From: an uncultured Puniceicoccaceae bacterium
GTDB taxonomy: Bacteria > Verrucomicrobiota > Verrucomicrobiia > Opitutales > Oceanipulchritudinaceae
NCBI GenBank assembly: GCA_963933835.1
Contig: CAWVVV010000003.1
Location: 32,001-96,000 of the forward strand
Direction: 5' to 3'
DNA length: 64,000 bases
Shown here: positions 2,948 through 62,748 of the stretch, piece by piece
Layout of the letters: every line of letters begins with the position of its first letter
Numbering within the stretch: position 1 is the first letter of the stretch
Program-made: the position numbers and the translations under genes
Notes under the pieces: generated by a model
What the model was told of the DNA's origin: nothing
Databases searched by the model: none
What the model saw: only the letters and a program-made list of their open reading frames with translations

Positions 2948-2981
2948 AAAAAAGCCACTCCCTAAAAGCAGGGAGTGGCTT
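2948..2981 (-). terminator. Intrinsic terminator between convergent mrdA and TBDR
   Basis: 12-bp stem AAGCCACTCCCT/AGGGAGTGGCTT with an A-run on the left (U-tail on minus strand). Confidence 0.8.
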
Positions 2982-3006: not shown

Positions 3007-5412
3007 TTAGAACTTCCAAGTAAGCGTGCCTTCGACTCGAACCGGCAGCTCAGCGAAGATAGACTCACCACCATAAACAGCGTTCGGTGGTGACCAGTTT
3101 TCTTCGTTCGTCACATTCAGAAAGGTCAGAGCGGCCTTCCATGTTTCGGTCTCATAATAGATCGTTGTATCGATGTTGAACTGCATCGGAATAACGAGAG
3201 ACCCCGCTACATTGTTATTCATCTCTGACGTAATAAACCCGGCAACTTGGATGCCATATCCAGCGTCAGCCTTATAAGAAATAAGCGCATTGGCTGTATG
3301 CTTCGGCGAACCCTGACGTTGGTATTCTCCAGGAGGGAGGATAAAGAACGGCGTCTGACCCGGCAACCAAGGTGAGGTATTGTTCACATCGAATTGTGGA
3401 CCATTGACGGTTGAATCCGTAATCGACCAGCTGGCGGTGAAATACCAATTCTTATTAGGCTGATAATTAGCCTCGATTTCAAAGCCCTCAATCGTGAATT
3501 CGTCAATAGAACCATCAATACTCAGATTTGTCCGAACTTGCTCAAAGAGCGCAGCGCCGACGAAGAGCTTGCCCTCAAGATAGGTAGCCTTCGCACCGAC
3601 CTCAAAAAGCTCAGTCTCTTGCTCGAAACGGCTTTTCGAAAAGGTGTAAACGCTGTCGCCATCTTCATCTTCGAGCTGACCGTAGCCACCACCGTTTGCA
3701 GTCGTGCCCCCAGGGTTTTCACTGTAATTGTAAGTGAAGTAGACTGAGAACGTATCGTTCAACTTCCAGAGCGGGCTGATGTTATAGTTCAAAAGACTAA
3801 CACTAATGTCGTCGTCCGCCGTGGCCCATACAGGGACTAACGGATCGCGCCCAGATACGGAGAGGTAGTCGACGCGCACACCACCAAGAATTGTGAAGTT
3901 GTCTGAAATCGCGTAGTTGAGCTGTGCAAAAGGTCCAAAGCCGAAGGCCTCAGAGATACTCGTGTCGCCATTAAAGATTCCCTCCGTTGCATACCGTCCA
4001 GGGTGCCCAGGAACGGCTGGGGCATCGGGCCAATTAACCGAGTTGTATACATCGATAAAATCATTACCGACTGAGAGATCCCATACATTCGCAGGCTCAA
4101 AGAAGAAGTGGTTATAAGCAGTCACCTCTTGGTAGTTGACCGCTGCTCCCACGTTCAGGTCGTATTTTTCGCCCGATCGTTGATACTCAAGGCGAGATTC
4201 TAAGCGCCAGCTTGGATCGATGATTTCTGAGTAGTTATATGAGCTAAAGGTGTCGCGGTTAATGTAATTGAAATACGAGTTACTCACGATTTTCGACTCA
4301 TCATCGAGGGTGAAGGTCTGGATCGCTTGAAGGTTAATGCTGTAACCGTCAGAATCGTCACCTGGCTTGATCAGGCGCCATGCGCGGTCGACCTTAGTAG
4401 TGGGACCCCAAGCCATGCGGTTTGTAACCGGATAGCCCGCAGTGACCCAACGGGAATTCTGAGGATCAGATTGAGCAGCCGCTGGATACTGAGCACCAGG
4501 GACTTGGCCATCATTTCCAAAATCGATCACATTACCTGAGTCGTCCAAATAATCACCACCGGTGAGAGATGGATCAGGATTGTTGTTAACACCAGTAATG
4601 TAGTTACCGTTGTCGATCAAATCCTGGGCAGGACGATTGATTCCAAAGTTTTCAGTGTAGTGAGCGTAGAGAACTTCGCCATTCACAAAGAGCTCGTACT
4701 TGTCATTTGGACGGAAGGTCACACCCGCATAGAGGGCCTGAGTCCGCTTAAAAGAGTGATCGAAGTATCCTTCAGAATCCTCACCTGAATAACTGATACG
4801 ATAGGCCAATTTCTCACTGATCGGACCACCAAAATCGATTGTCCACATCCGTTTGTCATACTGTCCTAAAGTGACTGCGATTTCGCCGCCGAACTCATCG
4901 AAGTAAGGGCGCTTTGTTATAAAGTCTATGTAACCACCCACATACTGTGAAGCTCCATGCACCACTGAAGCAGGTCCCTTGACGATGTTAACCGACTCAA
5001 CCGCATTGAAATTAATTGGCAGGCCGTTACCATTACTGGTCAGGCCTCTGCGGATACCATTCCACATCGTGTCGGAAATCTGGGTGCGGATATCAGGCTG
5101 AGCTGGAGCACCAAAATTTGTCCGAGTGAACGAACTCGAGGTCAATTTCGTGAAATCACGGACATCAGTAATTGAGATAGCGTCCAATTGCTCACGAGAG
5201 ATGATCGTTACACTGCGAGGCGTATCGAGAATGCTTTGGGAGAGCCCAAAGACAGAATCGAACGGTCGAGAAGTTGGCAGGATATTTTCTTCGATCGGAA
5301 TTTCGTCCGAAATGAAGGCATCCAACTCCTGAGGTTCGTCTTGAGCTTGGACAATGCTGAAAGCGGCGCACGTTAATGCCGCTACGGTTAAGTATGATCG
5401 ATATCGTAGCAT
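3007..5412 (-). CDS. TonB-dependent receptor
   Basis: Signal peptide, plug motifs (DTPRSVTIISREQLD; VESVNIVKGPASVVHG), C-terminal NVTNE..TLTWKF. Confidence 0.92.
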   Translation of the reverse strand: MLRYRSYLTVAALTCAAFSIVQAQDEPQELDAFISDEIPIEENILPTSRPFDSVFGLSQSILDTPRSVTIISREQLDAISITDVRDFTKLTSSSFTRTNFGAPAQPDIRTQISDTMWNGIRRGLTSNGNGLPINFNAVESVNIVKGPASVVHGASQYVGGYIDFITKRPYFDEFGGEIAVTLGQYDKRMWTIDFGGPISEKLAYRISYSGEDSEGYFDHSFKRTQALYAGVTFRPNDKYELFVNGEVLYAHYTENFGINRPAQDLIDNGNYITGVNNNPDPSLTGGDYLDDSGNVIDFGNDGQVPGAQYPAAAQSDPQNSRWVTAGYPVTNRMAWGPTTKVDRAWRLIKPGDDSDGYSINLQAIQTFTLDDESKIVSNSYFNYINRDTFSSYNYSEIIDPSWRLESRLEYQRSGEKYDLNVGAAVNYQEVTAYNHFFFEPANVWDLSVGNDFIDVYNSVNWPDAPAVPGHPGRYATEGIFNGDTSISEAFGFGPFAQLNYAISDNFTILGGVRVDYLSVSGRDPLVPVWATADDDISVSLLNYNISPLWKLNDTFSVYFTYNYSENPGGTTANGGGYGQLEDEDGDSVYTFSKSRFEQETELFEVGAKATYLEGKLFVGAALFEQVRTNLSIDGSIDEFTIEGFEIEANYQPNKNWYFTASWSITDSTVNGPQFDVNNTSPWLPGQTPFFILPPGEYQRQGSPKHTANALISYKADAGYGIQVAGFITSEMNNNVAGSLVIPMQFNIDTTIYYETETWKAALTFLNVTNEENWSPPNAVYGGESIFAELPVRVEGTLTWKF

Positions 5413-5568
5413 GAGTTTTATAGTTGGTTAAGGACGTGAACAAAAAATAGCAGAATCATGAACACTAGACCCGAATCTAAGCCGATATTGGTTGAACAAT
5501 GCAACTATCCTTTGAAAATAAATTTACCTTACTTTCGCTTTAAATAGGGCCGAAGGTTCAACGGGCAC

Positions 5569-7368
5569 CTAGGAAAAGAGGGGTTGAATCGTCATCTCAG
5601 GGACCTTCACCAGCCCCTTGTCCGTCAGCCTGATTTCGGGAATAACCGATAGTGGTAAAAGGTTGAAGCCCATGTAGGGTAACGTGCATCCAGCAGCCAC
5701 CCAGGCTTCCTTCAGAATCGTCGTCGCAGCGGCGACTTCGGTCGCCCGTTGGTCCGAAATTAGGCCCGCAACCGGAAGCTCAACTTTGGCCACAATCTCA
5801 CCATTTTGCACCACGACGACTCCACCCTGCGAACCGCGAATTGATTCCACAGCGAGATCCATTGCTGACTCAGAGGTGCCCGCGACAACCACATTATGAG
5901 CGTCGTGACCCACACTGCTAGCGACGGCGCCGTTCTTGAGACCGAAATTTTGGAGGAAAGTGTGAGCGACCTCACCGGATTTACCATAGCGCTCGATCAC
6001 TGCGAGGTGACAGAGATCATTTGCGGCCATAAAATCACCCCAGTCAGTCACACCCGCCGGATTGAATTCAGCCTGCCGATGCAGAGTGACGATCCCCGGG
6101 AGCTCCGTTCGAATAAAATGCACGGTTGAAGCGCTTTCAGGAAGCGCCGGGAGGAGCTTTGGACTCTCGGGCAATTGCACCGTCGTATAGGCTGCCTTGG
6201 GATAAACGTAGCGCTTCTTAGAAAGCTGCGCATCCAGCGATGGCGTTACCTTCTGATCTTCGACGACAAGCTCGCCTCCAAACCAAGTGTTCTGAACCTC
6301 GAGCGCGTCATTCAATAAGACTACATCTGCCCGGCGGCTGTGCCCAAGGGCCCCGAATTCTCCATCCATACTATAGCGCGTCGCAGGGTGCAGTGAACCC
6401 ATACTCCACGCAGTCCAAGGATTGATGCCGGAATGGACCGCCTGACGCGTCACCCAATCGAGGCCAAAGAGGAAGAGGTCGTCGGCATCGCGATCATCAG
6501 TGCAGACGCATACTCGCTTCGTTGAGGTACCCAGATGCGTCACGGCCTTGATCGCCTCGGGTAAGCTATGCCAAGGCGTTGTCGGCGGGCCCCCTCGGAG
6601 AAAGACCCAAACCCCTGCTTCCAATAAGTCGTTTGCGATATCCCGATCAATGGCCTCGTGAGTGTCCGTCACACCGCTAGCGGCGTAGGCGGCTACGAAA
6701 TCGCGGCCGTAAATATGACCGGAGACAACCCGATTGCGCTCCAATGCTGCCGCAATCACTCCGTGACTCCGCTCATCGCCCATACACACTGGGACAAAAT
6801 CCATCTTCTCGCCGAGCCCTAGAATCTCCGGCCACTTATCAAAAAGCTGCCCAGCCTTCTCTGGCGTGAGATCACCGCCACAGGTCTCGAGCCCAGCATG
6901 GGTCGCCGGAATCGTCGACGGGAGGGTGAGGAAAATATTGAGCGGCGCTTGGCGGGCGTCTTCGAGCATCCATTCGATGCCATCGGTGTCACAGACATTT
7001 CCGATTTCATGACTGTCGCAGAAGATCGTCGTCGTGCCATTGAGGAGTGCGGCCTCGGCGTAGGCGCACGCGGTCATCATACTGCTTTCGATGTGGATAT
7101 GCGGATCGACCAAGCCGGGTGCTAGAATGCCGCCATTGGCATCGTAAAACTTTGTCGAACCCTTGGCTGCAAAACTACCGGCTGGCTTCACCGCCGCGAT
7201 TCTTCCCTCTGAAATCCAGATCTCTCTATCATCAATGAGTCGTTCGGTGTAAGTGCTGAGCACCCGACCACCCCTGATCACTAGATCGGGTGCCTCGCGG
7301 CCAGAGGCAACGGCGGCTAAACGGCGGGTTACAGTGTGCAGAGGCGGAACGGAAAAACGAGTAAGCAT
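5569..7368 (-). CDS. ade: Adenine deaminase
   Basis: [61 protein letters not shown]. Confidence 0.92.
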
Positions 7369-7414
7369 GATTGTTAATCAAGAGTTTGGGTTAAGGAAAG
7401 GAGCTGGAGAAAAA

Positions 7415-8989
7415 CTAAAATGAAATATCGAAGTAGCGCTTCGCGTAATCGTAGGTCTCCGCCTCTACTTGCGAGAGTCGGTTCTTCCAGTTCGATGCGC
7501 TGAAGCTTGAGGCGAAATCATTCAATGCATGATCATAAGAGTCTAGGCGATCCGCCTTCTCCACATCAGTCAAATAGGCGAATTCCAGACTATTGCGGCC
7601 CAGCTGCACCAGCTCATCCCACGAGAGGTTGAAGTGACTGACCGCAAGGTAGTATTCATCCGTCATATTCGAAGACCACATTCCTCGGTCATCGGTATTC
7701 AAACAGCATGGGATACCCTGACGCATATAGATCGCAAAGGGATGATCCTTCGGATCGGGAATATACTTAAGGAGGTGATTCGAGATAAGGTTGATCTCGA
7801 CCAAGAACTGCCCGCTTCGCATCAGCTGCATCGTCGATGTATCCATAATCAGATTACACCCATGGCCGATGCGGTTTGCTCCGAGGCGCAGCGTATCCGC
7901 GATGGATGAGTCTGGTTTTTCCGCCTCGCCTGCATGAATCGCGACCCCGATGCCGGGATAGAGCCGCAGCATCTCGTCAAACACCTCTGTAAAGCGCGCC
8001 GGGTGGCCTCGGTTGTCATCCTCGCGACCCGCCATATTGATCCCTCGCCAGAGACCGCGATGCGTATCGAGCCACTTGAAGTGGGTACGCACATCGGCCA
8101 CTGCGTTGTCGGTGAAGCGGATAACAACACTCTGAAAACGAACCAGCACACCCGTTTCGAGCGCATCCGGCTGCTGGAGGCGGTTTTTAAAATAAGCGTA
8201 GGTCTCATCCACCGAGAGCACTCTCCCATCTGGAGCGGTTTTGCCCCACGGATTCTCCATGATCTCGAGGTAACGAACACCTTCCGCTCCATAGCGGCGC
8301 ATGTTCTCAACCATCAACTCGCCGATCACAGTGACATCAAATAAGAGCGCTCCGAGGCGCGGCCAGTGGTACTCAAAAAACTCGTTCCTACCCTCATTCG
8401 CTGAGTCCAAGACGACGGACGACTTCCACGCCTTCTCCTCAGCCTTCGAAAGCGATTCAAGCGCCTTAAAATCCGCCTTAATCGCCGGCTCGAGCCGATC
8501 ATATAGATTACTTTTGATCGTCATCCATTTGATCACGTGTGGCCCCATCCAACCAGCTAACTCAGGAGGCACAGGCGCACTCGACAACTTGAAGCGGGTG
8601 TAGAAAGTCTGCCCACCATTGCGCGAAGGATCCGTTGCGATATCCCACCACATTTCGGGTAGCATCGCCCCACCCATATGGTGATGAATATCCCCGCCCT
8701 TTGGTAGCGCATAAAGGAACTTATAGAGCTCAGTTGGCGTTCCTTCCCGTTTGATCGTTTCGTATACGGCGGCCATCGAGCCCATCGCATCTGGGCCAGA
8801 AGAGAGGCCCGAAAAACTGCGGTGAGGAAATTGGTCGTGCAGCGACGGCATTTCAGGCTCTGTCCCCGCTGGATGCGCTCGACCCGTCACCGCCGCCAAG
8901 AAGCCGGATCCCAGACTTAGGCCGAGAAACGAGCGGCGACTAAATGGAGTTAAAGAAGGCGTATTTTCGGGGTCTGAGGGAGCTGCCAT
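7415..8989 (-). CDS. Tat-exported adenosine deaminase-like protein (ADA2/ADGF type)
   Basis: SRRSFL twin-arginine signal; LPKGGDIHHH, IHAGE, RIGHG, NTDD deaminase motifs. Confidence 0.85.
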   Translation of the reverse strand: MAAPSDPENTPSLTPFSRRSFLGLSLGSGFLAAVTGRAHPAGTEPEMPSLHDQFPHRSFSGLSSGPDAMGSMAAVYETIKREGTPTELYKFLYALPKGGDIHHHMGGAMLPEMWWDIATDPSRNGGQTFYTRFKLSSAPVPPELAGWMGPHVIKWMTIKSNLYDRLEPAIKADFKALESLSKAEEKAWKSSVVLDSANEGRNEFFEYHWPRLGALLFDVTVIGELMVENMRRYGAEGVRYLEIMENPWGKTAPDGRVLSVDETYAYFKNRLQQPDALETGVLVRFQSVVIRFTDNAVADVRTHFKWLDTHRGLWRGINMAGREDDNRGHPARFTEVFDEMLRLYPGIGVAIHAGEAEKPDSSIADTLRLGANRIGHGCNLIMDTSTMQLMRSGQFLVEINLISNHLLKYIPDPKDHPFAIYMRQGIPCCLNTDDRGMWSSNMTDEYYLAVSHFNLSWDELVQLGRNSLEFAYLTDVEKADRLDSYDHALNDFASSFSASNWKNRLSQVEAETYDYAKRYFDISF

Positions 8990-10323
8990 TATCGAACGAT
9001 ATAGAAGAGGATGAACAAGCCACCGATGACGTAGCTAAAGACCGGGACTTCTTTTCCACGGCCGGTGAGAATCATAATGAAAATCCATGAGGCGATGCCG
9101 AGACCAATCCCCTCGGTGACGCTAAAGGTTAAGGGGATGAGCAGCATCGTGATCACCGCCGAGGCCAATTCGGGCAAGTCATCGAAGTCGAGATCCGGCA
9201 ATCCCTGCGCCATAAATATCCCCACCGCAACGAGTGCAGGGGTCGTCGCGACCAACGGAATCATCGTGATCAAGGGTGCGAAGAAAAGCGCCAATAGAAA
9301 ACAAATACCTACTGTCACGGAGGTAAGCCCTGTGCGTCCACCCGCTTCGACACCCGCCGCCGACTCGATATAGGAGGTTGTCGTCGAAGTGCCAAAAAAT
9401 GCTCCGATCGAGGTTGCGACAGCATCTGCCGCCAGCGCTCGACTAATCTTGGGCATTTTGCCTTCGGCATTGAGCAACTTTGCCCGCCGAGCAAGGCCGA
9501 TGATCGTCCCGAGCGAATCAAACAGATCGAGCATCAGAAGCGTCACGAGGAGAGAGATCGTCTCCACGCTGAAATGGGTAAAGGGGTATAAAATATCTAG
9601 CTTGAAGAACGTTTCTCCCATCGACGGAGGGAGTCCAATCAAGCCTAAGAGCCCACCCTCAGAGGGGAATTTAGTCACTGTGCTACCCTGCCCGTCTGGT
9701 ATCAGTAAACCGATGACGGTTAAAGCGACAACGGTGGCAAGGATCGCGGCCGGAAACTTACGCACCGTCAAAGCCACGATCAAAATGATGCCGCCAAAAA
9801 CAAGCAGTGCAGGGGCCGAAGTCAGGTCGCCTATACCCACCAGCGTCGCCTCGTTGTTTATGATGATACCGGCATTCTTTAAGCCAATAAAAGCGATGAA
9901 AAAGCCAATCCCCGTCTGAATTCCAACTTTCACCCCATTCGGAAGTGACTCAGCAAGTTTTGTTCGAAAACCGGTGACCGAAAGGATGAGGAAAATGATC
10001 CCATTCCAGAAGGTCAGCGAAAGTGCGGCCTGCCACGGAAGCCCCATTCCAATACAGATCACAAAAGCGAAGTAGGCATTCGTCCCCATCCCTGGGGCAA
10101 GCGCGATGGGGTAATTCGTCGCATACGCCATCAAGAAGCAACCCAGCGCAGCCGCCAGCGCCGTAACCGTAATCAAGGCCTCAGGCGGCATCCCCGCCGC
10201 CGAGAGAATACTCGGGTTCACCGCGAGGATATAGGCCATCGCGGCGAAAGTCGTCAGGCCCGCTATCAGTTCGGTCCGAACCGTTGTGCCGTTGGCAGAG
10301 AGTTTAAAGAGGCGTTCGAGCAT
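8989..10323 (-). CDS. NCS2 (AzgA-type) purine permease
   Basis: TELIAGLTTF..MAYIL.VNP.ILS, LAPGMG.NAYF, TSYIESAAGVEAGGRTGLT; start placed at MLERLFKL (10323). Confidence 0.93.
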   Translation of the reverse strand: MLERLFKLSANGTTVRTELIAGLTTFAAMAYILAVNPSILSAAGMPPEALITVTALAAALGCFLMAYATNYPIALAPGMGTNAYFAFVICIGMGLPWQAALSLTFWNGIIFLILSVTGFRTKLAESLPNGVKVGIQTGIGFFIAFIGLKNAGIIINNEATLVGIGDLTSAPALLVFGGIILIVALTVRKFPAAILATVVALTVIGLLIPDGQGSTVTKFPSEGGLLGLIGLPPSMGETFFKLDILYPFTHFSVETISLLVTLLMLDLFDSLGTIIGLARRAKLLNAEGKMPKISRALAADAVATSIGAFFGTSTTTSYIESAAGVEAGGRTGLTSVTVGICFLLALFFAPLITMIPLVATTPALVAVGIFMAQGLPDLDFDDLPELASAVITMLLIPLTFSVTEGIGLGIASWIFIMILTGRGKEVPVFSYVIGGLFILFYIVR

Positions 10324-10342
10324 AGTGGGATATGATCTAGTG

Positions 10343-10358
10343 TGCATACAAAATGCCA
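10343..10358 (-). promoter_or_regulatory. Putative sigma54 (-24/-12) promoter of the permease-deaminase operon
   Basis: Minus strand TGGCATTTTGTATGCA with canonical GG-N10-GC spacing, about 20 nt upstream of ATG 10323. Confidence 0.5.
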
Positions 10359-10419
10359 AGAGTTGAAAAAGATACACCCTAGCAGTTGAGTGATGCCATA
10401 GAAGATGTTCTATCAAGAT

Positions 10420-12492
10420 ATGCCTAGAACTTTTCTTCTTATCAGCCTCCTCCTTTCTGGCACACCCCTCACCGACGCTGCTGAGCCAAAGCCGATCAAG
10501 GCCGTCGTTCTTGCCATGTATGAAATTGGTGAAAGCGCGGGCGACATCCCCGGCGAACTTCAATTTTGGGTCGAACGCTACCCCGGGGTCGAACCCATCG
10601 AATTCCCCCTCGGACGCCGTGAGCTCTATCTCAACGACGAAGGCGTCCTCGTCGCCTTGACCGGTGGTGGCCTCACCCACGCCGCCACAACGATTACCGC
10701 CCTTGGGCTCGACGCCCGTTTCGATTTCTCGAAGGCCTACTGGCTTATTGCCGGTATCGCCGGCGCTGATCCCGAAGACGCCTCACTGGGAACCGCCGCA
10801 TGGGCACGCTATGTCGTCGATGGCGATCTAATGAAAGAGATCGATGGTCGAGAAATCCCAGAATCTTGGCCGTATGGTCAGATCCCTCTGGGTGCAAAAG
10901 AGCCCAATACCTTCGATGGCGGCTGGTCCGTCGATAACATCGTCTTCGAGCTGAATGCGGGGCTGGCGCAATGGGCCTATGAACTGACGAAAGACGATGC
11001 GGTTGACGACACCCCAGCGCTGGCTGAGTTCCGCACCGCCTTCAAGGGTTATCCAGCGGCGCAGACGCCACCGCGCGTCATTCTTGGCGACGGCATCGCT
11101 TCCAGCACATACTGGCATGGTGCCCTCATGAACGACTGGGCGAATGACTGGGTAAAACTTCACACCGGCGGCAAAGGAAACTTTGTCATGACTGGAATGG
11201 AAGACACCGGGACGCTCACCGCCCTTCGTCGACTCAGTCTGATCGGCAACGTCGACATGGATCGGGTTATGATCCTTCGCACCGGTAGTAACTTTTCACG
11301 ACAGCCTCCAGGCAAGGACGTCGCTTGGAGCACAACAGCACCCTACCCCGACAATGGCCTTCCGGCCCTCGAGGCGGCCTACAAGCTTGGCAGTAAAGTC
11401 GTCAATGCGATCGTTGACGACTGGAGTGTCTATGCGACTGAGCTCCCCTTCGCTAAACCTGTCGATGTCACGCCTGGCTGCATAGATGACTTTCCGGCAA
11501 ATGGTCCGATTAAGATCAAGGCGGTTGTGGTCACGATGTTTGAAATTGGCGAAGACACCGGTGATCGCCCCGCTGAGTTCCAATACTGGGTTGAACGCTG
11601 GCCGCTCACCGAGTCGATTGCTTTTCCGCACGGCTACCGTAATTTACGCTATGACCCTGAAACAGGCGTCCTCGGTATCGTCACTGGCATCGGAACCTTC
11701 CGTTCTGCCTCGTCGATCATGGCCCTAGGGATGGACCCGCGTTTTGATCTCTCGCAGGCCTACTGGCTTGTCGCGGGGATCGCTGGCGTTGATCCGAACG
11801 ACATGTCTCTCGGCAGCGCCGCTTGGGCCGAATGGCTCATCGACGGAGATCTTGCTCACCATATCGACGCGCGCGAGGCCCCTGCTGAATGGACCACCGG
11901 ATACACTCCCCTTCGCCACACCGAGCCCTATAAACAACCTCTTCCAGAAAACGATGAAGGCGTGCGATATAAACTGGACTCCGCTCTCGTCGAGTGGGCG
12001 TATCAACTTTCCAAGGACACCGAACTTCTCGACAACGAGGGGTCAGCAAAACTCCGGGCGCGCTACGTCAATTACCCGACAGCGCAACGACCACCCTTTG
12101 TCTTGAAAGGAGACCAACTCGCCGCGATGACCTTCTGGCACGGCAAGCTCAACAACGACTGGGCAAACGATTGGGTCAACTACTGGACCGAAGGCTCGGG
12201 CAACTTTGTTACCTCCGCGATGGAAGAAACCGGAACGATGCAGTCACTCACATTTCTTGATAACGCTGGAAAGGTCGACATCGACCGCGTCCTCGTTCTC
12301 CGCACCGCGAGCAACTTCTCGATGCAATACGAAGGCGTCACTGCGGTCGAAAGTCTCAGTGGAGAAAAGAAAGGCGGCTACTCCGCATTTATTCCCGCGG
12401 TTGATAACGCCTACCGTGTTGGCAGCGTTGTCCTACGAAATATCATCGAAGGCTGGGAGACGCACAAAAACACCCTTCCCGGTCAGCGCTAA
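10420..12492 (+). CDS. Secreted protein with two tandem NUP ('purine nucleoside permease' family, nucleoside phosphorylase-like) domains
   Basis: Signal peptide; two copies of M(Y/F)EIG..GD.P.E.Q.WVER / D.RFD.S.AYWL.AGIAG.DP / (Y/F)WHG / ME.TG / LRT.SNF; alternative start 10405. Confidence 0.85.
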   Translation: MPRTFLLISLLLSGTPLTDAAEPKPIKAVVLAMYEIGESAGDIPGELQFWVERYPGVEPIEFPLGRRELYLNDEGVLVALTGGGLTHAATTITALGLDARFDFSKAYWLIAGIAGADPEDASLGTAAWARYVVDGDLMKEIDGREIPESWPYGQIPLGAKEPNTFDGGWSVDNIVFELNAGLAQWAYELTKDDAVDDTPALAEFRTAFKGYPAAQTPPRVILGDGIASSTYWHGALMNDWANDWVKLHTGGKGNFVMTGMEDTGTLTALRRLSLIGNVDMDRVMILRTGSNFSRQPPGKDVAWSTTAPYPDNGLPALEAAYKLGSKVVNAIVDDWSVYATELPFAKPVDVTPGCIDDFPANGPIKIKAVVVTMFEIGEDTGDRPAEFQYWVERWPLTESIAFPHGYRNLRYDPETGVLGIVTGIGTFRSASSIMALGMDPRFDLSQAYWLVAGIAGVDPNDMSLGSAAWAEWLIDGDLAHHIDAREAPAEWTTGYTPLRHTEPYKQPLPENDEGVRYKLDSALVEWAYQLSKDTELLDNEGSAKLRARYVNYPTAQRPPFVLKGDQLAAMTFWHGKLNNDWANDWVNYWTEGSGNFVTSAMEETGTMQSLTFLDNAGKVDIDRVLVLRTASNFSMQYEGVTAVESLSGEKKGGYSAFIPAVDNAYRVGSVVLRNIIEGWETHKNTLPGQR

Positions 12493-12504: not shown

Positions 12505-12981
12505 CTACTTCGCGCTCGGTTCAATCGTGTAGCTAAGCTCAAAGCGGTGGCCACCGGATGACTGATCAATCGTCATTGCTCCCGCAATGCCTTTGAGCTC
12601 TCCAGTGCCCGAGTCAGGAACGATGACAACCGTCAACGAACTCTCCCCACGGCTCATGAGACCCGTGTGCTGGAGCGCAAAACTGCCGGTTTTGCCATCC
12701 AGAGTGGCTTCGACAAGCTCCATCGCGACATAGCCTGCCGAACCAGGATTTGCAGTCCGAACGCTCAGCATCTGTCCTTTTCCGGTGCCTGCGAGACTCC
12801 CGTAGTAGATCTTATCGATCGTCAGCCTACCGGCCTGAAATTCACTGTCTTCACAAGGCTGAACCTTGATGTCAAAGGTTCCGGAAGCGATCAATGGAGT
12901 CGTCATAGGAGAAGTTATGGGGTTGGCGCAAAGCGTGGTGAATACACCGATAAAGAGTAAGATTATCGTCTTGGTCGACAT
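12505..12981 (-). CDS. DUF3224 family protein
   Basis: AGYVAME...TLDGKTGSFALQH.G..IVPDSGTGELKGIAG. Confidence 0.8.
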   Translation of the reverse strand: MSTKTIILLFIGVFTTLCANPITSPMTTPLIASGTFDIKVQPCEDSEFQAGRLTIDKIYYGSLAGTGKGQMLSVRTANPGSAGYVAMELVEATLDGKTGSFALQHTGLMSRGESSLTVVIVPDSGTGELKGIAGAMTIDQSSGGHRFELSYTIEPSAK

Positions 12982-12997
12982 TTGAAATCTCTCCTAG

Positions 12998-14374
12998 CTA
13001 GGCCTTCTTAGCAACCGCCTCGAGGATAGCCCTAGAGATTAATTGTCCTTTTTCAAAAAGACCTAGATGCAAACTTTCATTCGGCGCATGGTGGCGATCT
13101 TTATCTGTAAATACGCCGACCATCAGCGCATCCATTCCGAGCGCTGCCTTAAGTTGCCCAATGATAGGTATGCTTCCGCCCTCGCGAAGATAAACGGGGG
13201 TATCACCAAAGACCTCTTTGGCTGCTTCTTCAGCGGCAACAAAAGCGCGCGCTAAGGCGGCGTTCTGATCTGCTGGGGTATCACTTCGACCCGGAGGCAC
13301 AACGCGATAGGCTGGACCATGGTGCCCCACATGCACCTCCATGCGAACCTGTGGCGGACAGCGTTCGAGAAGTGTTTTCTTCACGAGGGCAGCAATCTCA
13401 GCGGGCTCCTGATTGGCAACCAGACGACAACTGATTTTCGCAAAGGCCTGACTCGGCACGATCGTCTTATCTCCTGCACCTTGATAACCGCCGCCGATGC
13501 CGTTGAACTCAAGTGTCGGCATCACGCGGGTCACCTCCATTGGAGACAGTCCACCCGTCGGAGCGAAGTCAGGAACATCGAGAAACGCTCTCAAGCTTTC
13601 AGTATCAGACCCGAGGCGGGCGATTTCATCACGCTCCCATTGCTGAACATCGACAACGGCGTCATAGAAATTTGGGACATTCACGCGTCCATCCGGCGAA
13701 TGAAGAGATGCACACACCTCCGCTAGCGCTTGCACTGGATTGTAGACGGCGCCACCAAACAGACCCGAGTGCAGATCGCTTGAAGGGCCAGTGATTTCTA
13801 CCTCCATTGTTACAATACCACGCAGAGCCACTGTAATACCGAGTTGTTCTGGCGTCGGGCTCATCGTGTCCGAGAGAAGTAGAAAGTCCCCGCGAAGCTC
13901 GTCGCCATACTTCTCCAAAATATCAGAGAGGCTCGGGCTACCGATTTCTTCTTCCCCTTCGACAAAGAATGTAATGTTGAGCGGCAGATCAGGCTGCTCG
14001 GCCAAAAGTTTTTTCACCGATGACAAGTGCGCCATGAGGCCGCCTTTGTTATCCGCTGCACCACGCCCGTAGAGACGATCGCCGCGCACCTCCGCCTCGA
14101 AAGGAGGCGAAGCCCATTTATCAAGCGGATCTGGCGGCTGCACATCGTAGTGTCCATAGATCACCACATGAGGCGCGGCCTCCGAAACCTTCCGATGGGC
14201 AATCACGACAGGGTGCCCAGTCGTCGGCGCGACGCGGGCTTCAAAGCCCATGTCTTTCAAAAAGTCGCAGAGCCAGTCGCGGGCCCCTTGCATACCTTCA
14301 GCGAACTCAGGGTCAGTCGATACGCTTGGGAAACGAACGAATGCCTTCAGGGAGGAGATAGGATCAAATGTCAT
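12998..14374 (-). CDS. M20 family dipeptidase
   Basis: YGHYDVQPPDP, GRGAADNKG, EGEEEIGS, DLHSG, GGSIPI, HAPNE. Confidence 0.92.
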   Translation of the reverse strand: MTFDPISSLKAFVRFPSVSTDPEFAEGMQGARDWLCDFLKDMGFEARVAPTTGHPVVIAHRKVSEAAPHVVIYGHYDVQPPDPLDKWASPPFEAEVRGDRLYGRGAADNKGGLMAHLSSVKKLLAEQPDLPLNITFFVEGEEEIGSPSLSDILEKYGDELRGDFLLLSDTMSPTPEQLGITVALRGIVTMEVEITGPSSDLHSGLFGGAVYNPVQALAEVCASLHSPDGRVNVPNFYDAVVDVQQWERDEIARLGSDTESLRAFLDVPDFAPTGGLSPMEVTRVMPTLEFNGIGGGYQGAGDKTIVPSQAFAKISCRLVANQEPAEIAALVKKTLLERCPPQVRMEVHVGHHGPAYRVVPPGRSDTPADQNAALARAFVAAEEAAKEVFGDTPVYLREGGSIPIIGQLKAALGMDALMVGVFTDKDRHHAPNESLHLGLFEKGQLISRAILEAVAKKA

Positions 14375-14396
14375 AAAAATCAACTACAGAAGAAAA

Positions 14397-20575: not shown

Positions 20576-23243
<2,668 letters not shown>

Positions 23244-48098: not shown

Positions 48099-48288
48099 GG
48101 TCTCCCCCGGAATCGCCGTGAATGTAATCAAGCTCTTGTCCTTTTGTATGGCAAAGGTGGGTGCTTCCGACCAAGCTTTTGTCTTCCGGTGTGCGGCATG
48201 ACAGCGGCCCAGCCGGGTCGAGCTCCCAAGGGAATGATTATCAGAGAAGAGCGCTTTGAAAACCTCTCGAACGCTCCAGAGGAGATTT
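48099..48288 (-). ncRNA. ssrS: 6S RNA
   Basis: About 190 nt; ends pair (ATCTCCTCTGGA / TTCCGGGGGAGAC); hallmark TGGGAGC..GCACCCACCT; T-run after the 3' end; upstream promoter. Confidence 0.75.
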
Positions 48289-50039: not shown

Positions 50040-52073
50040 ATGCCATTAAGGAATCAAAAACGAACCGTCTTTCTCGCTGCTGCTGCGCTATCTACCGCTC
50101 TCGCTCCAAGCATGATGGCGCAAGAGGAAGTAGTGGAACTAGAGAGCTTCGATGTGACAGCGCTGCACTTTCCTGAATTGTCCGTCGAGGTCCCTAGTGC
50201 CATTTCGATTATCGAAGGAAGCGATCTAACAAACTACGGAGCTGCCACGATTCCAGAAATTTTGAGCTCAAGCGCTGGAATTGTCACTCGAAGTCTTTCG
50301 GGCACGCCCTCTCAGGCTACAATTGATATCCGCGGGATGGCTGCAACGGCCAACCAACGCGTCCTCACACTCGTCAACGGACGCCGTCTCAATCGCCCCG
50401 ACCTAGGCCAAATCAACTGGCTGCAAATCCTCCCTAGTGACGTCCAGCGGATCGAAGTCTACCGGGGCGGCCAAGGCGTCATCTACGGCGACAATGCGAT
50501 GGGCGGCCTGATCAAGATTGAAACGATCAGTCCTGCTGAACCCGGTTTATCGCTCGGCATTAATTTCGGAAGCGAGAATCTGCGCAGTGCCAACCTCTCT
50601 GCCGAAACAGATATACCCTCTGGAGGACTCCGCGTAAGCACGTTCTTCCTTCAGCAAGACGGCTATCGCGACCACTCAGAAGTCAGCGTGAGCAATATCA
50701 ACGGGACTCTAGCACTTGAACTCAACGATTGGACAACAGAGACGAGTCTACAGTATTCGCAACAGGACACAGAGATGCCAGGCGCCGTTGTCTCATTTGG
50801 ATTTCCGAACAATCCACGAGCAGCGCAGAACACGACTGACTTTGTCCGTGAAGAGAACCTCAACTTCGACGAAGTCGTACGTGGGGCCATCAGCGACACG
50901 CTCGACCTCGAAGTGATCTTCAATTTTTCCGCACGCGACCAAGAGACCTTCTTCTTTTCATACACGGAAAATGATCTGGAAAGCCTCAGCCTGAGCCCGC
51001 GATTCCACTACACAACCGGTCCCGTAGAATGGGTCTTTGGAACAGATTTAAGCAAAGACACCCTCGACGTTTCAATCTACCCTGACGAATCAAAGGGAAC
51101 ACTCTCCAATACAGCTGAAGTAGAGCGGGAAAGCTACGCGGGCTATCTTCATGCCACCTATGGAATCACCGACAGCACCTCACTGCGCGGCGGCATACGG
51201 CATCAGAGTGTAAAGACCTCAGCGTCCTCGACTGCGGGTGGCAGCGCAGCTCCAGACTTTGCTGACGCCGCTACTCACGACCTCCAAGCAGCAACCGTAG
51301 GTATTAACCACCGAATCGGCAAAAATGCCAGAGTCTGGGCACGATGGGATCGCCTCTTCCGCTTTCCAGTGACCGATGAAGTAGCGAGCTACCAAGGCTT
51401 TCTCCTCAACCCACCCTTCAATCTCGATCTGCGTCCTGAAAAAGGAAATGGATACGAAATCGGAGGTCAATTAACGGCGGGCGAATTCCTTCTTTCTGGA
51501 AACCTCTTCCTTATCGAACTGGAGGACGAAATCACTTTCTACACCGACCCTATAACCTTTGCTTCTGCGAATGTTAATCTCCCCGCCACCCAGCGCGAAG
51601 GTATCGAGATTTCACTACGCTATGAAGGCGAACGCTTCCGTGCCTCCGCAAGCTGGACTGGGCTGAGTGCTGAATTCACCGAAGGCCCGAATGATGGCAA
51701 CACGCCTGCCCTCATCCCGCGCCACCAAGTCAACCTTAGCGCAGAGGTCGACCTACTGGACAACCTCCGCTTCGGCGCCCGTGCTCTCTACCTAAGTAAA
51801 CAGTATGAAGATCAGTATTTAGATGCCGACTGGGACCAACCCTTCGGCGCACCCAATGCTGATCCCTACATTCCAGAAAGCTTCGTCGTTGATACCTACC
51901 TTAATTACGAAGTAAACGACCGCGTCTCCCTACAATTCACAATCACAAATCTCTTCGACCGCGACTATGCTCCCTACAAGCTGACCACTTACGACCTTGC
52001 TAACCCAGACGCAGACGCTTGGTATCCAGCGCCCGGCATCGGCTGGCGCTTCAGCGGTCAGTTTGAGTGGTAG
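50040..52073 (+). CDS. TonB-dependent receptor
   Basis: Signal peptide, IDIRG, RIEVYRGG..YG.NAMGG.I.I, LRPE, NLFDR.Y, C-terminal W. Confidence 0.92.
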   Translation: MPLRNQKRTVFLAAAALSTALAPSMMAQEEVVELESFDVTALHFPELSVEVPSAISIIEGSDLTNYGAATIPEILSSSAGIVTRSLSGTPSQATIDIRGMAATANQRVLTLVNGRRLNRPDLGQINWLQILPSDVQRIEVYRGGQGVIYGDNAMGGLIKIETISPAEPGLSLGINFGSENLRSANLSAETDIPSGGLRVSTFFLQQDGYRDHSEVSVSNINGTLALELNDWTTETSLQYSQQDTEMPGAVVSFGFPNNPRAAQNTTDFVREENLNFDEVVRGAISDTLDLEVIFNFSARDQETFFFSYTENDLESLSLSPRFHYTTGPVEWVFGTDLSKDTLDVSIYPDESKGTLSNTAEVERESYAGYLHATYGITDSTSLRGGIRHQSVKTSASSTAGGSAAPDFADAATHDLQAATVGINHRIGKNARVWARWDRLFRFPVTDEVASYQGFLLNPPFNLDLRPEKGNGYEIGGQLTAGEFLLSGNLFLIELEDEITFYTDPITFASANVNLPATQREGIEISLRYEGERFRASASWTGLSAEFTEGPNDGNTPALIPRHQVNLSAEVDLLDNLRFGARALYLSKQYEDQYLDADWDQPFGAPNADPYIPESFVVDTYLNYEVNDRVSLQFTITNLFDRDYAPYKLTTYDLANPDADAWYPAPGIGWRFSGQFEW

Positions 52074-62671: not shown

Positions 62672-62748
<77 letters not shown>

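What the first reader, a model, noticed from the sequence alone, without database searches (positions are those of the whole stretch)
3007..12492. Candidate purine-nucleoside utilization locus with periplasmic processing
Seen: five contiguous genes, namely a TonB-dependent receptor, cytoplasmic adenine deaminase, Tat-signal adenosine deaminase-like protein, NCS2 purine permease and a divergent secreted tandem NUP protein. Known: TBDRs energise outer-membrane uptake, AzgA-type NCS2 proteins import purine bases, and both deaminase families release NH3. Inference: a PUL-like pathway in which the TBDR imports nucleosides (possibly modified ones), periplasmic ADA gives inosine + NH3, NUP domains release the base, NCS2 imports it and Ade handles adenine. 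I do not know of a characterised system with this architecture.
Basis: partly seen in the sequence, partly recalled or inferred. Interest (0 to 1): 0.8.

Follow-up and report, generated by a model that had tools for sequence, protein, structure and literature searches.

The report
Cell-envelope purine scavenging gene cluster
A small-genome marine bacterium keeps an energy-driven outer-membrane importer beside exported enzymes that appear to strip ammonia and sugar from adenine compounds before the bare base is taken in, a layout that recurs in many aquatic bacteria and suggests a route for harvesting dissolved purines that I could not find described.

Summary
All five genes are real and intact; the NCS2 start is 10323. 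The linkage is conserved. A core purine gene lies within 8 kb of the receptor in 65 of 79 related loci, against 1.4% of control windows. The exported deaminase has NUP beside it in 42 of 80 loci from two phyla. Gene order varies and the full five-gene set is rare, so this is a flexible module.

(1) NUP is not a permease. It models as an MTAN-fold nucleosidase with the catalytic Glu kept and Asn for Asp197, predicting inosine/guanosine-type substrates and hence deamination first.
(2) The tandem protein fuses two NUP subclades.
(3) The deaminase lacks the ribose-binding Asp and has Gly, as the ATP deaminase Cad1 does, so AMP or 5'-substituted adenosines are as likely as adenosine.
(4) A sigma-54 site heads the operon, resembles the one before this genome's amtB-glnK, and is enriched before related receptors.

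No activity has been shown. Ten literature searches found no description. This scan reported the same kind of module earlier on other genomes (e1-4191517, e1-2567643, e1-2928037, e1-2629212).

The parts
3007..5412 (-). TonB-dependent receptor, purine-linked clade A, 801 aa; last gene of the operon
   Evidence: Pfam Plug and TBDR NCBIfam hits; tree; neighbours of 79 relatives
2952..2981 (-). 13-bp intrinsic-terminator-like hairpin between the TBDR and the convergent PBP2 gene
   Evidence: consensus match only
5569..7368 (-). Cytoplasmic adenine deaminase-type enzyme, 599 aa, of a tightly conserved subfamily (69-91% identity among the 120 best hits, about 33% to ordinary Ade)
   Evidence: motifs H90/H92, H120/E121, E187, H218, H237/E238, D291/D292, H488/D489
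7415..8989 (-). Tat-exported ADGF/ADA2-like adenyl deaminase, 524 aa; Zn and catalytic residues H102, H104, H352, E355, H376, D433, D434 intact; Gly106 where ADA1 has Asp19
8989..10323 (-). AzgA-type NCS2 nucleobase permease, 444 aa; first gene of the operon; stop overlaps the deaminase start
10343..10358 (-). Sigma-54 (-24/-12) promoter-like site, ending 19 nt before the NCS2 ATG
   Evidence: similar site 76 nt before amtB at G000:C1:441421; rpoN present. Not significant on its own in the window (18 of 100 shuffles match)
10405..12492 (+). Secreted tandem NUP (PF06516) protein, 695 aa; two MTAN-fold nucleosidase domains (about 10483-11460 and 11500-12489) from different subclades; E51/E391, M265-E266/M606-E607, R292/R633, N296/N637

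Best explanation
The locus is a cell-envelope system for scavenging dissolved adenine-containing compounds, probably switched on by nitrogen shortage.

1. The TBDR pulls adenine nucleosides or nucleotides into the periplasm (inferred from conserved linkage; ligand untested).
2. The exported deaminase removes the 6-amino group there (fold and catalytic residues shown; substrate inferred). My split: AMP-type nucleotide about 40%, adenosine 35%, MTA/SAH/5'-deoxyadenosine 15%, other 10%. The ammonia is retrieved by AmtB, and a periplasmic phosphatase such as the genome's PhoD-like protein would remove any phosphate (inferred).
3. The two NUP domains hydrolyse the resulting 6-oxopurine nucleosides (inosine, also guanosine or xanthosine) to base plus sugar (fold and residue equivalence shown; activity and specificity inferred).
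4. The AzgA permease imports hypoxanthine, guanine and adenine (family knowledge).
5. Ade deaminates adenine that arrives as free base.

In this genome the base is then salvaged rather than oxidised, and the ribose can be phosphorylated by ribokinase. Many relatives couple the same front end to full ring degradation.
For: Linkage. 65 of 79 receptor-anchored loci (30 of 36 clusters at 80% identity) carry a core purine gene, against 68 of 4925 random windows of this genome. Of 80 deaminase-anchored loci, 42 have NUP, 40 a TBDR, 29 AzgA, 22 PuuE and 9 XdhB. 37 of the neighbouring receptors fall into two defined clades. Among 61 genomes (G000 plus 60 relatives), all 8 with the deaminase have NUP and this Ade subfamily, and 7 of 8 have the clade-A receptor.

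NUP. Model pLDDT 96.9. Top Foldseek hits are MTANs. VIA Z 24.3, rmsd 2.9 over 236 residues to periplasmic MTAN 5b7g. hhalign probability 96 places E391 on Glu12 and N637 on Asp197. Asn occurs in 56 of 57 deaminase-linked domains. Asn at this place confers 6-oxopurine specificity in NP-I enzymes (PMC5074518, passages). NUP is fused elsewhere to IU nucleoside hydrolase, a CDA-fold deaminase and S1/P1 nuclease.

Alternative route. An exported Asp-type MTAN-like protein stands beside 15 of 79 receptors, and 14 of those 15 loci lack the deaminase, as expected if it releases adenine directly.

Regulation. A sigma-54 pattern occurs in 36 of 462 upstream regions against about 4 expected from shuffles, including 19 of 131 receptors; 13 of 699 in control ORFs.

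Host context. Ribokinase is over the cut-off; purC and a purF-like gene beside purM are present, so it is probably not a purine auxotroph.
Against: No enzyme or transport assay exists.

The five-gene set is rare and its order varies. G040 has a clade-A receptor with no recognised purine neighbours. G052 has deaminase and NUP but no clade-A receptor.

Asn is also the majority residue in NUPs not linked to the deaminase (19 of 19 domains from the window and its relatives, linked or not; 65 of 89 broad representatives), so it is no sign of co-adaptation by itself. The family-founding Candida NUP supports yeast growth on adenosine (PMC9431476, passages); I did not check its residue.

This genome shows no XdhB, urate oxidase, guanine deaminase or PuuE orthologue by tblastn, so only one N per adenine is freed. 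Its HPRT-like protein scores 97.7 bits against a cut-off of 150, and no UshA-type 5'-nucleotidase was found.

The sigma-54 site alone is matched by 18 of 100 shuffles, leaves a very short leader, is absent from most related upstream regions, and no NtrC-like palindrome was found near it. Related loci are kin, and many contigs are short.
Confidence: 0.68

Rival explanations
1. Same parts, but the target is 5'-substituted or base-modified adenosines (MTA, SAH, 5'-deoxyadenosine, N6-alkyl purines). The deaminase gives methylthioinosine-type products and the MTAN-fold NUP cleaves them, like the aminofutalosine deaminase plus futalosine hydrolase pair.
For: The deaminase has no Asp at either ribose-5'-OH position (0 of 77). 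NUP is closest to MTANs, which act on 5'-substituted nucleosides, and has a weak futalosine hydrolase hit. A P450 lies beside the module in G001, G029, G045, L089 and L254, and a Rieske/VanA oxygenase in G016 and 3 receptor loci. The Ade is a distinct subfamily.
Against: P450 and Rieske genes are rare in the scans and absent beside this locus. Common neighbours are ordinary purine genes. Ten deaminase-family Arg/Lys residues are at least 85% conserved, which fits a phosphate better than a hydrophobic tail, though their positions relative to the site were not measured.
Confidence: 0.15
2. The module mainly supplies purine bases (and ribose) for salvage to save biosynthetic cost; ammonia release is incidental and the locus is not nitrogen-controlled.
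For: No ring-degradation orthologues in this genome. Ribokinase and an HPRT-like gene are present. A PRTase is a neighbour in 8 of 80 loci.
Against: Two deaminases would be wasteful for adenine salvage alone. There is a sigma-54 site similar to that of amtB-glnK and enrichment in relatives. De novo purine genes are present.
Confidence: 0.25
3. NUP is a non-catalytic periplasmic purine-binding protein (an enzyme-derived shuttle between TBDR and permease), consistent with its 'permease' name.
For: E. coli MTAN Asp197Asn was crystallised with intact MTA (entry title 1z5o), implying loss of activity on that substrate. Candida NUP was characterised as mediating nucleoside uptake (PMC9431476, passages).
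Against: The Glu12 equivalent is kept in 54 of 57 linked domains, with Met-Glu and Arg also kept. Asn is the normal catalytic residue for 6-oxopurines in trimeric PNPs. Candida NUP allowed growth on adenosine but did not confer toyocamycin sensitivity, which fits external cleavage better than transport (my inference). AzgA carries bases, not nucleosides (family knowledge).
Confidence: 0.1
4. The receptor is an unrelated iron or vitamin receptor and the clustering is a local accident.
For: Best NCBIfam and PDB matches are siderophore receptors. One clade-A receptor has no recognised purine neighbours.
Against: Those matches cover only the plug region and are far below cut-off (96.5 against 223.5 bits). 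65 of 79 receptor loci have purine genes against 1.4% of controls.
Confidence: 0.03

Closest known systems
TonB-dependent nutrient-utilisation loci (Bacteroidetes PULs, Xanthomonas/Caulobacter CUT loci)
   Same: TBDT plus periplasmic enzymes plus inner-membrane importer in one locus (definition of PULs in PMC8027193, passage).
   Different: Purine enzymes instead of CAZymes; no SusD gene among the five; found in Verrucomicrobiota and Gammaproteobacteria.
Bacteroides ribose-utilisation system (rus PUL)
   Same: SusC-type transporter linked to nucleoside hydrolase and ribokinases (recalled; named in earlier finding e1-2567643; paper not held).
   Different: Aimed at the sugar, uses IU-type hydrolases and SusD; no exported deaminase, NUP or nucleobase permease as I recall it.
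MTA/SAH nucleosidase (MTAN), incl. periplasmic Aeromonas MtaN-1 (5b7g), and futalosine hydrolase MqnB
   Same: Fold (Z 24.3), Glu12, Met-Glu and Arg193 equivalents; a periplasmic member exists.
   Different: About 90 extra residues per domain, 10-16% identity, Asn in place of Asp197, tandem fusion of two subclades.
ADGF/ADA2 family: Elizabethkingia bADA2, human ADA2, Helix pomatia AMP deaminase
   Same: Secreted, about 500 aa, ADA fold; top structural matches are HPAMPD and chimeric ADGF. Secreted bacterial ADA2 is known (cited in PMC10358891 and PMC13516308, passages; the original paper was not held).
   Different: 16-19% identity; lacks the family-invariant Asp after HxH (HPAMPD D124); TDDRG instead of DDP; Tat signal in this subclade; linked to transport genes.
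Nucleotide deaminases Cad1/RdrB (ATP to ITP)
   Same: Gly in place of mouse ADA Asp19 (PMC12669630, passage; HCHLGG seen in CARF-ADA proteins L053/L054).
   Different: Those are cytoplasmic defence effectors with CARF domains or large insertions, and TaqCad1 also has Asn for Asp296; this protein keeps D434, is exported and has no defence context.
Candida albicans NUP (PF06516 founder)
   Same: Same Pfam family.
   Different: Described as a permease; the protein here has no transmembrane segment and an enzyme fold.

Membership tests
TonB-dependent receptor | N-terminal plug domain, C-terminal barrel ending in aromatic residue, signal peptide | tested here: met
   PF07715 above cut-off; C-terminal NCBIfam stretch 515-671; ends WKF. 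The barrel Pfam model did not hit this protein but hit relative L095.
TonB-dependent receptor | Ligand is a purine compound | not testable with these tools
   Inferred from neighbourhood only.
PUL/CUT-type utilisation locus | TBDT conserved next to periplasmic processing enzymes and an inner-membrane importer | tested here: met
PUL (Bacteroidetes, strict sense) | SusC/SusD pair and carbohydrate-active enzymes | tested here: not met
   None of the locus ORFs has a SusD or CAZyme family.
PUL/CUT-type utilisation locus | Co-transcription and induction by substrate or nutrient state | tested here: inconclusive
   Tight spacing, one terminator-like site and a sigma-54 site. RNA-library contigs cover parts of the receptor in 4 of 4 runs and of the deaminase and NUP in 1; contigs cannot show level, strand or co-transcription.
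MTAN / NP-I hydrolase | NP-I fold with Glu12-type base, Met-Glu ribose motif and Arg193 | tested here: met
   (C-terminal domain modelled; N-terminal domain by alignment)
MTAN (adenine-specific) | Asp197 for adenine N7 protonation | tested here: not met
   Asn in both domains and in 56 of 57 linked domains.
Membrane permease (the NUP name) | Transmembrane helices | tested here: not met
   No hydrophobic segment, against 10 in NCS2 by the same scan; soluble alpha/beta model.
Adenosine deaminase superfamily | HxH, HxxE, His and DD catalytic set on the ADA fold | tested here: met
ADA1 / ADGF adenosine deaminase (nucleoside-specific) | Asp after HxH contacting the ribose side (ADA1 Asp19; ADGF invariant Asp) | tested here: not met
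   0 of 77 have Asp at +1 or +2; S/G/T/A/P at +2.
AMP/nucleotide deaminase (HPAMPD-like) | Polar or basic phosphate pocket (T125, R223, Y227, R232, S256) | tested here: inconclusive
   G/S/T at the T125 position and invariant R211 two residues from the R223 position; Y227 and R232 not matched.
Adenine deaminase (Ade, TIGR01178) | Binuclear metal motifs and C-terminal domain | tested here: met
   Motifs align with 3nqb; PF13382.
Adenine deaminase (Ade, TIGR01178) | Score above equivalog cut-off; adenine as substrate | tested here: inconclusive
   377 against 472.5 bits; EKMD in place of EIMN; substrate untested.
AzgA-type NCS2 | PF00860 membrane protein closest to AZG1/2 | tested here: met
Futalosine (menaquinone) pathway | Cytoplasmic enzymes among mqn genes | tested here: not met
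   Both enzymes carry export signals; neighbours are purine genes; TIGR03664 32 against 124.7 bits.

The most novel reading that the evidence does not exclude
This is a TonB-dependent uptake system for dissolved purine nucleotides or nucleosides, under sigma-54 nitrogen control and spread over Verrucomicrobiota and marine Gammaproteobacteria. It would rest on two undescribed exported enzyme families: an ADGF-like deaminase that acts on AMP-type nucleotides, and PF06516 'permeases' that are really 6-oxopurine nucleosidases in two subtypes. An exported Asp-type MTAN would be an interchangeable adenine-releasing alternative.
Probability: 0.4. Interest if true: 0.8.

Novelty: new variant of a known kind. 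Interest (0 to 1): 0.64.

Why it matters
Nucleosides are among the nitrogen-rich phytoplankton exudates that several marine bacteria draw down (PMC8027193, passages), but my searches found no outer-membrane active uptake route for them. This locus names a receptor family, two exported enzymes and a promoter that can each be tested, and cultured strains carry the module.

It also gives a concrete, cheap test for re-annotating Pfam PF06516: 1668 representatives at 50% identity matched one NUP domain, the family has no solved structure by sequence, and it has long been called a permease. A 1.94-Mb streamlined genome with few TBDRs (five candidates) keeps 9.5 kb for this, which suggests that purines matter in its nitrogen budget.

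Tried and rejected
Purine auxotrophy as the reason for the locus: rejected; purC is present and a long purF-like gene lies beside purM.

Futalosine pathway: rejected (see membership tests). Anti-phage deaminase: only a partial CARF_ADA hit, with no CARF domain. RNA element or riboswitch in the locus: no Rfam match between 3007 and 12492. Sigma-70 scan: at chance level. NtrC-like palindrome near the site: none with my recalled pattern. Downstream DUF3224 and M20 genes and upstream PBP2 as members: no hits in 80 or 79 related loci.

Single-sequence hhalign of NUP to MTAN was weak (probability 1); it became clear only with a four-sequence profile in global mode. Fragment search for HxH motifs in the PDB was uninformative.

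RNA runs: 4 runs, at most 3 samples, 1 study, contigs only. Pieces cover the receptor in all 4, the deaminase and NUP in X1, and Ade in X2. Lack of cover elsewhere shows nothing, and genes cannot be ranked.

The receptor tree is the quick method only, with midpoint root, and the relation of clades A, B and the paralogue is unresolved. The NUP tree is FastTree. The Zymomonas lead (recalled gene numbers) gave nothing on this module. Papers PMC6555301, PMC10516422, PMC13280913, PMC9994260 (passages) did not describe such a system. No complex prediction was run, because no binding is claimed. Supplements were not consulted; fitness or transcriptome tables in supplements could already link such receptors to purines.

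Full report
Observation. One correction: the NCS2 gene starts at 10323, not 10680, and is 444 aa. NCS2, deaminase, Ade and receptor run on the minus strand with gaps of -1, 46 and 156 bases and end in a 13-bp terminator-like hairpin. The NUP gene diverges 81 bases from NCS2. The genome is 1.94 Mb and 97% complete. The closest named homologues are Opitutales, and marine RNA libraries hold pieces at 99% or more identity, so I infer a streamlined marine Opitutales.

Conservation among relatives. Among 61 genomes (G000 and 60 relatives), 13 have NUP, 8 have the exported deaminase at E below 1e-100, 8 have the receptor at E below 1e-90, and 10 have this Ade subfamily. All 8 deaminase genomes have NUP and this Ade, and 7 have the receptor; kin are not independent. 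G029 and G045 hold all five genes in different orders.

Conservation in wider scans. A species-genome scan with the deaminase alignment confirmed 491 relatives and returned the best 80. Of these, 42 have NUP within 10 kb, 40 a TBDR, 29 AzgA, 18 a xanthine-type NCS2, 22 PuuE, 13 guanine deaminase, 9 XdhB and 6 Ade. They span Verrucomicrobiota and Gammaproteobacteria. The reciprocal metagenome scan with a receptor alignment confirmed 193 and returned 80; I left out L176, an identical copy of this locus. 65 of 79 have a core purine gene within 8 kb (42 of 46 loci of at least 10 kb; 30 of 36 clusters at 80% identity), against 68 of 4925 random windows of G000 outside this locus. In a 52-row quick tree, 37 deaminase-neighbour receptors fall into clade A (6, with the window's receptor) or clade B (31). 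All five genes together occur in only 2 of 80 and 3 of 79 loci. The unit is thus a flexible module, not a fixed operon.

NUP fold. No solved structure matches by sequence. The C-terminal domain models confidently (pLDDT 96.9). Foldseek ranks MTANs first, and VIA gives Z 24.3, rmsd 2.9 over 236 residues to periplasmic MTAN 5b7g, ahead of phosphorylases at Z 19 or less. There is no transmembrane segment. Profile alignment to MTAN-like proteins taken from fetched loci (probability 96) puts E391 on Glu12, M606-E607 on Met173-Glu174, R633 on Arg193 and N637 on Asp197 (the E. coli numbers are partly recalled, and Glu12 and Asp197 appear in entry titles). A Glu at this place marks a hydrolase rather than a phosphorylase (family knowledge).

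NUP specificity. Asn instead of Asp marks 6-oxopurine specificity in NP-I enzymes: K. lactis PNP is inactive on adenosine until N256D (PMC5074518, passages). Asn is found in 56 of 57 deaminase-linked domains and 25 of 25 parsed receptor-linked ones. It is also found in NUPs without the deaminase and in 65 of 89 broad representatives, 16 of which have Asp. The two domains of the window's protein sit in different subclades (29 and 39 rows), and 15 of 42 deaminase loci carry two separate NUP genes, mostly one of each type. The tandem is therefore a fusion of two old paralogues, probably with different preferences. NUP is fused elsewhere to IU nucleoside hydrolase, CDA-fold deaminase, Cupin_5 and S1/P1 nuclease. 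Candida NUP let an adenine auxotroph grow on adenosine but did not confer toyocamycin sensitivity (PMC9431476, passages); I read this as compatible with external cleavage.

An alternative route. An exported MTAN-like protein with Asp at the same place neighbours 15 of 79 receptors; 14 of these 15 loci lack the deaminase, where about 5 shared loci would be expected by chance (kin and short contigs weaken this). That is the pattern expected if one route releases adenine directly for AzgA and Ade, while the other deaminates first. G000 has such a gene on another contig, broken by a frameshift in a run of nine T in this assembly.

Exported deaminase. The model (pLDDT 88.8) matches Helix AMP deaminase and ADGFs best. 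All catalytic residues are kept. The 77 parsed N-termini show twin-arginine signals in the nearest subclade and, by eye, Sec-like signals in nearly all others. None of 77 has Asp one or two places after HxH. The window has Gly106, the substitution that separates the ATP deaminase Cad1 from adenosine deaminases (PMC12669630, passages) and the position of the phosphate-contacting T125 in Helix AMP deaminase (PMC12273558, section 4). R201, R211, R291 and R435 are invariant or nearly so. Other Helix phosphate residues are not matched. The substrate is open, and adenosine is not the safest guess. G000 has a PhoD-like protein (44% to the PhoD in the G029 cluster) but no UshA-type nucleotidase was found.

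Ade and NCS2. Ade keeps the metal motifs of 3nqb but belongs to a separate, highly conserved subfamily below the equivalog cut-off. NCS2 is AZG-like.

Regulation. A sigma-54 -24/-12 pattern lies at 10343-10358(-), the only match in the window. Of 13 genome-wide matches to a strict pattern, one of the closest in sequence lies 76 nt before amtB-glnK (amtB and glnK recognised by eye). rpoN is present. A looser pattern occurs in 36 of 462 upstream regions of module genes (receptors 19 of 131, deaminases 9 of 115) against about 4 from shuffles, and in 13 of 699 control ORFs from the same loci, in both phyla. Against this, the single site is matched by 18 of 100 shuffles, the leader would be about 9 nt, and most upstream regions lack it.

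Fate of products in this genome. No orthologue of XdhB, urate oxidase, guanine deaminase or PuuE was found by tblastn. The only molybdopterin-binding match is a Tat-signal IorB-like protein. Ribokinase is above cut-off, an HPRT-like gene below, and de novo genes are present. The yield here would be one ammonia per adenine plus a ready-made base and ribose.

Prior knowledge. Ten full-text searches found no paper describing a TBDR linked to an exported deaminase, NUP and NCS2, nor NUP as a nucleosidase. The library lacks most subscription papers, and I read no supplements. Secreted bacterial ADA2 and periplasmic MTAN are individually known. This scan has reported the same kind of module on other genomes; those are unchecked AI notes, and I use them as leads only. 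My MTAN-fold reading was noted before seeing them.

Verdict. The locus is real and conserved, and I found no description of it. It works like a PUL/CUT locus but for purines. The mechanism is inferred from fold, residues, neighbourhood and promoter pattern; no activity has been shown.

Noticed in passing
G000:C4:30083-33976: Exported Asp-type MTAN-like gene broken by a frameshift in a 9-T run (assembly error, phase variation or pseudogene), next to an HPRT-like gene, a cupin and a Tat-signal protein that resembles PhoX (recalled, not scanned). The same MTAN-like family neighbours 15 of 79 clade-A receptors.
   Followed up: partly
G000:C1:436005-441345: A paralogue of the receptor lies directly downstream of amtB-glnK, whose upstream region has a sigma-54 site like the one in the window. 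In G052 a similarly distant homologue follows the AzgA gene.
   Followed up: partly
L027:2020-3393, L022:11702-13087, L080:3641-4942, L089, L254: A cytochrome P450 sits inside or beside the purine module in several Opitutales loci; a Rieske/VanA oxygenase and a CDA-fold deaminase lie between NUP and NCS2 in G016 (L082). Possible N-dealkylation of modified purines; no orthologue in G000.
   Followed up: partly
L216:11278-14135: A protein with two GTP cyclohydrolase II stretches (cluster spanning 18 of 79 receptor loci) and an adjacent unannotated 357-aa protein (7 loci); not found in G000. Also reported in earlier finding e1-2164127.
   Followed up: partly
L120:13418-15535, L123:7570-9705; P0122, P0129, P0224, P0248: NUP fusions with IU nucleoside hydrolase (Halieaceae), Cupin_5, CDA-fold deaminase and S1/P1 nuclease.
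   Followed up: partly
L032:8651-11649, L034:7851-11802, L029, L030, L033: NUPs without an evident signal peptide in genomes or loci lacking the exported deaminase; two lie beside genes that look like purE/purK (recognised by eye).
   Followed up: no
G000:C1:464791-470796: Allantoinase-like gene and a fragment of allantoate amidohydrolase, interrupted by an HTH/HipA-like pair (by eye), next to an NMT1-type ABC transporter: possible remnant of purine ring catabolism.
   Followed up: no
G000:C6:3554-7988: Tat-signal IorB-like molybdoenzyme with small Fe-S subunit, XdhC-like and MocA-like genes; substrate unknown.
   Followed up: no
L053:1432-3483, L054:85-2058: CARF-adenosine deaminase (Cad1-like) genes in relatives G006 and G014.
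   Followed up: partly
window 21140-23243, 48100-48285, 50040-52073, 62672-62745: TPP riboswitch before thiC, 6S RNA, a second unrelated TonB-dependent receptor and a tRNA; ordinary.
   Followed up: no
window 12505-14383: DUF3224 protein and M20 peptidase convergent on the NUP gene; not seen in related loci, so not part of the module.
   Followed up: yes
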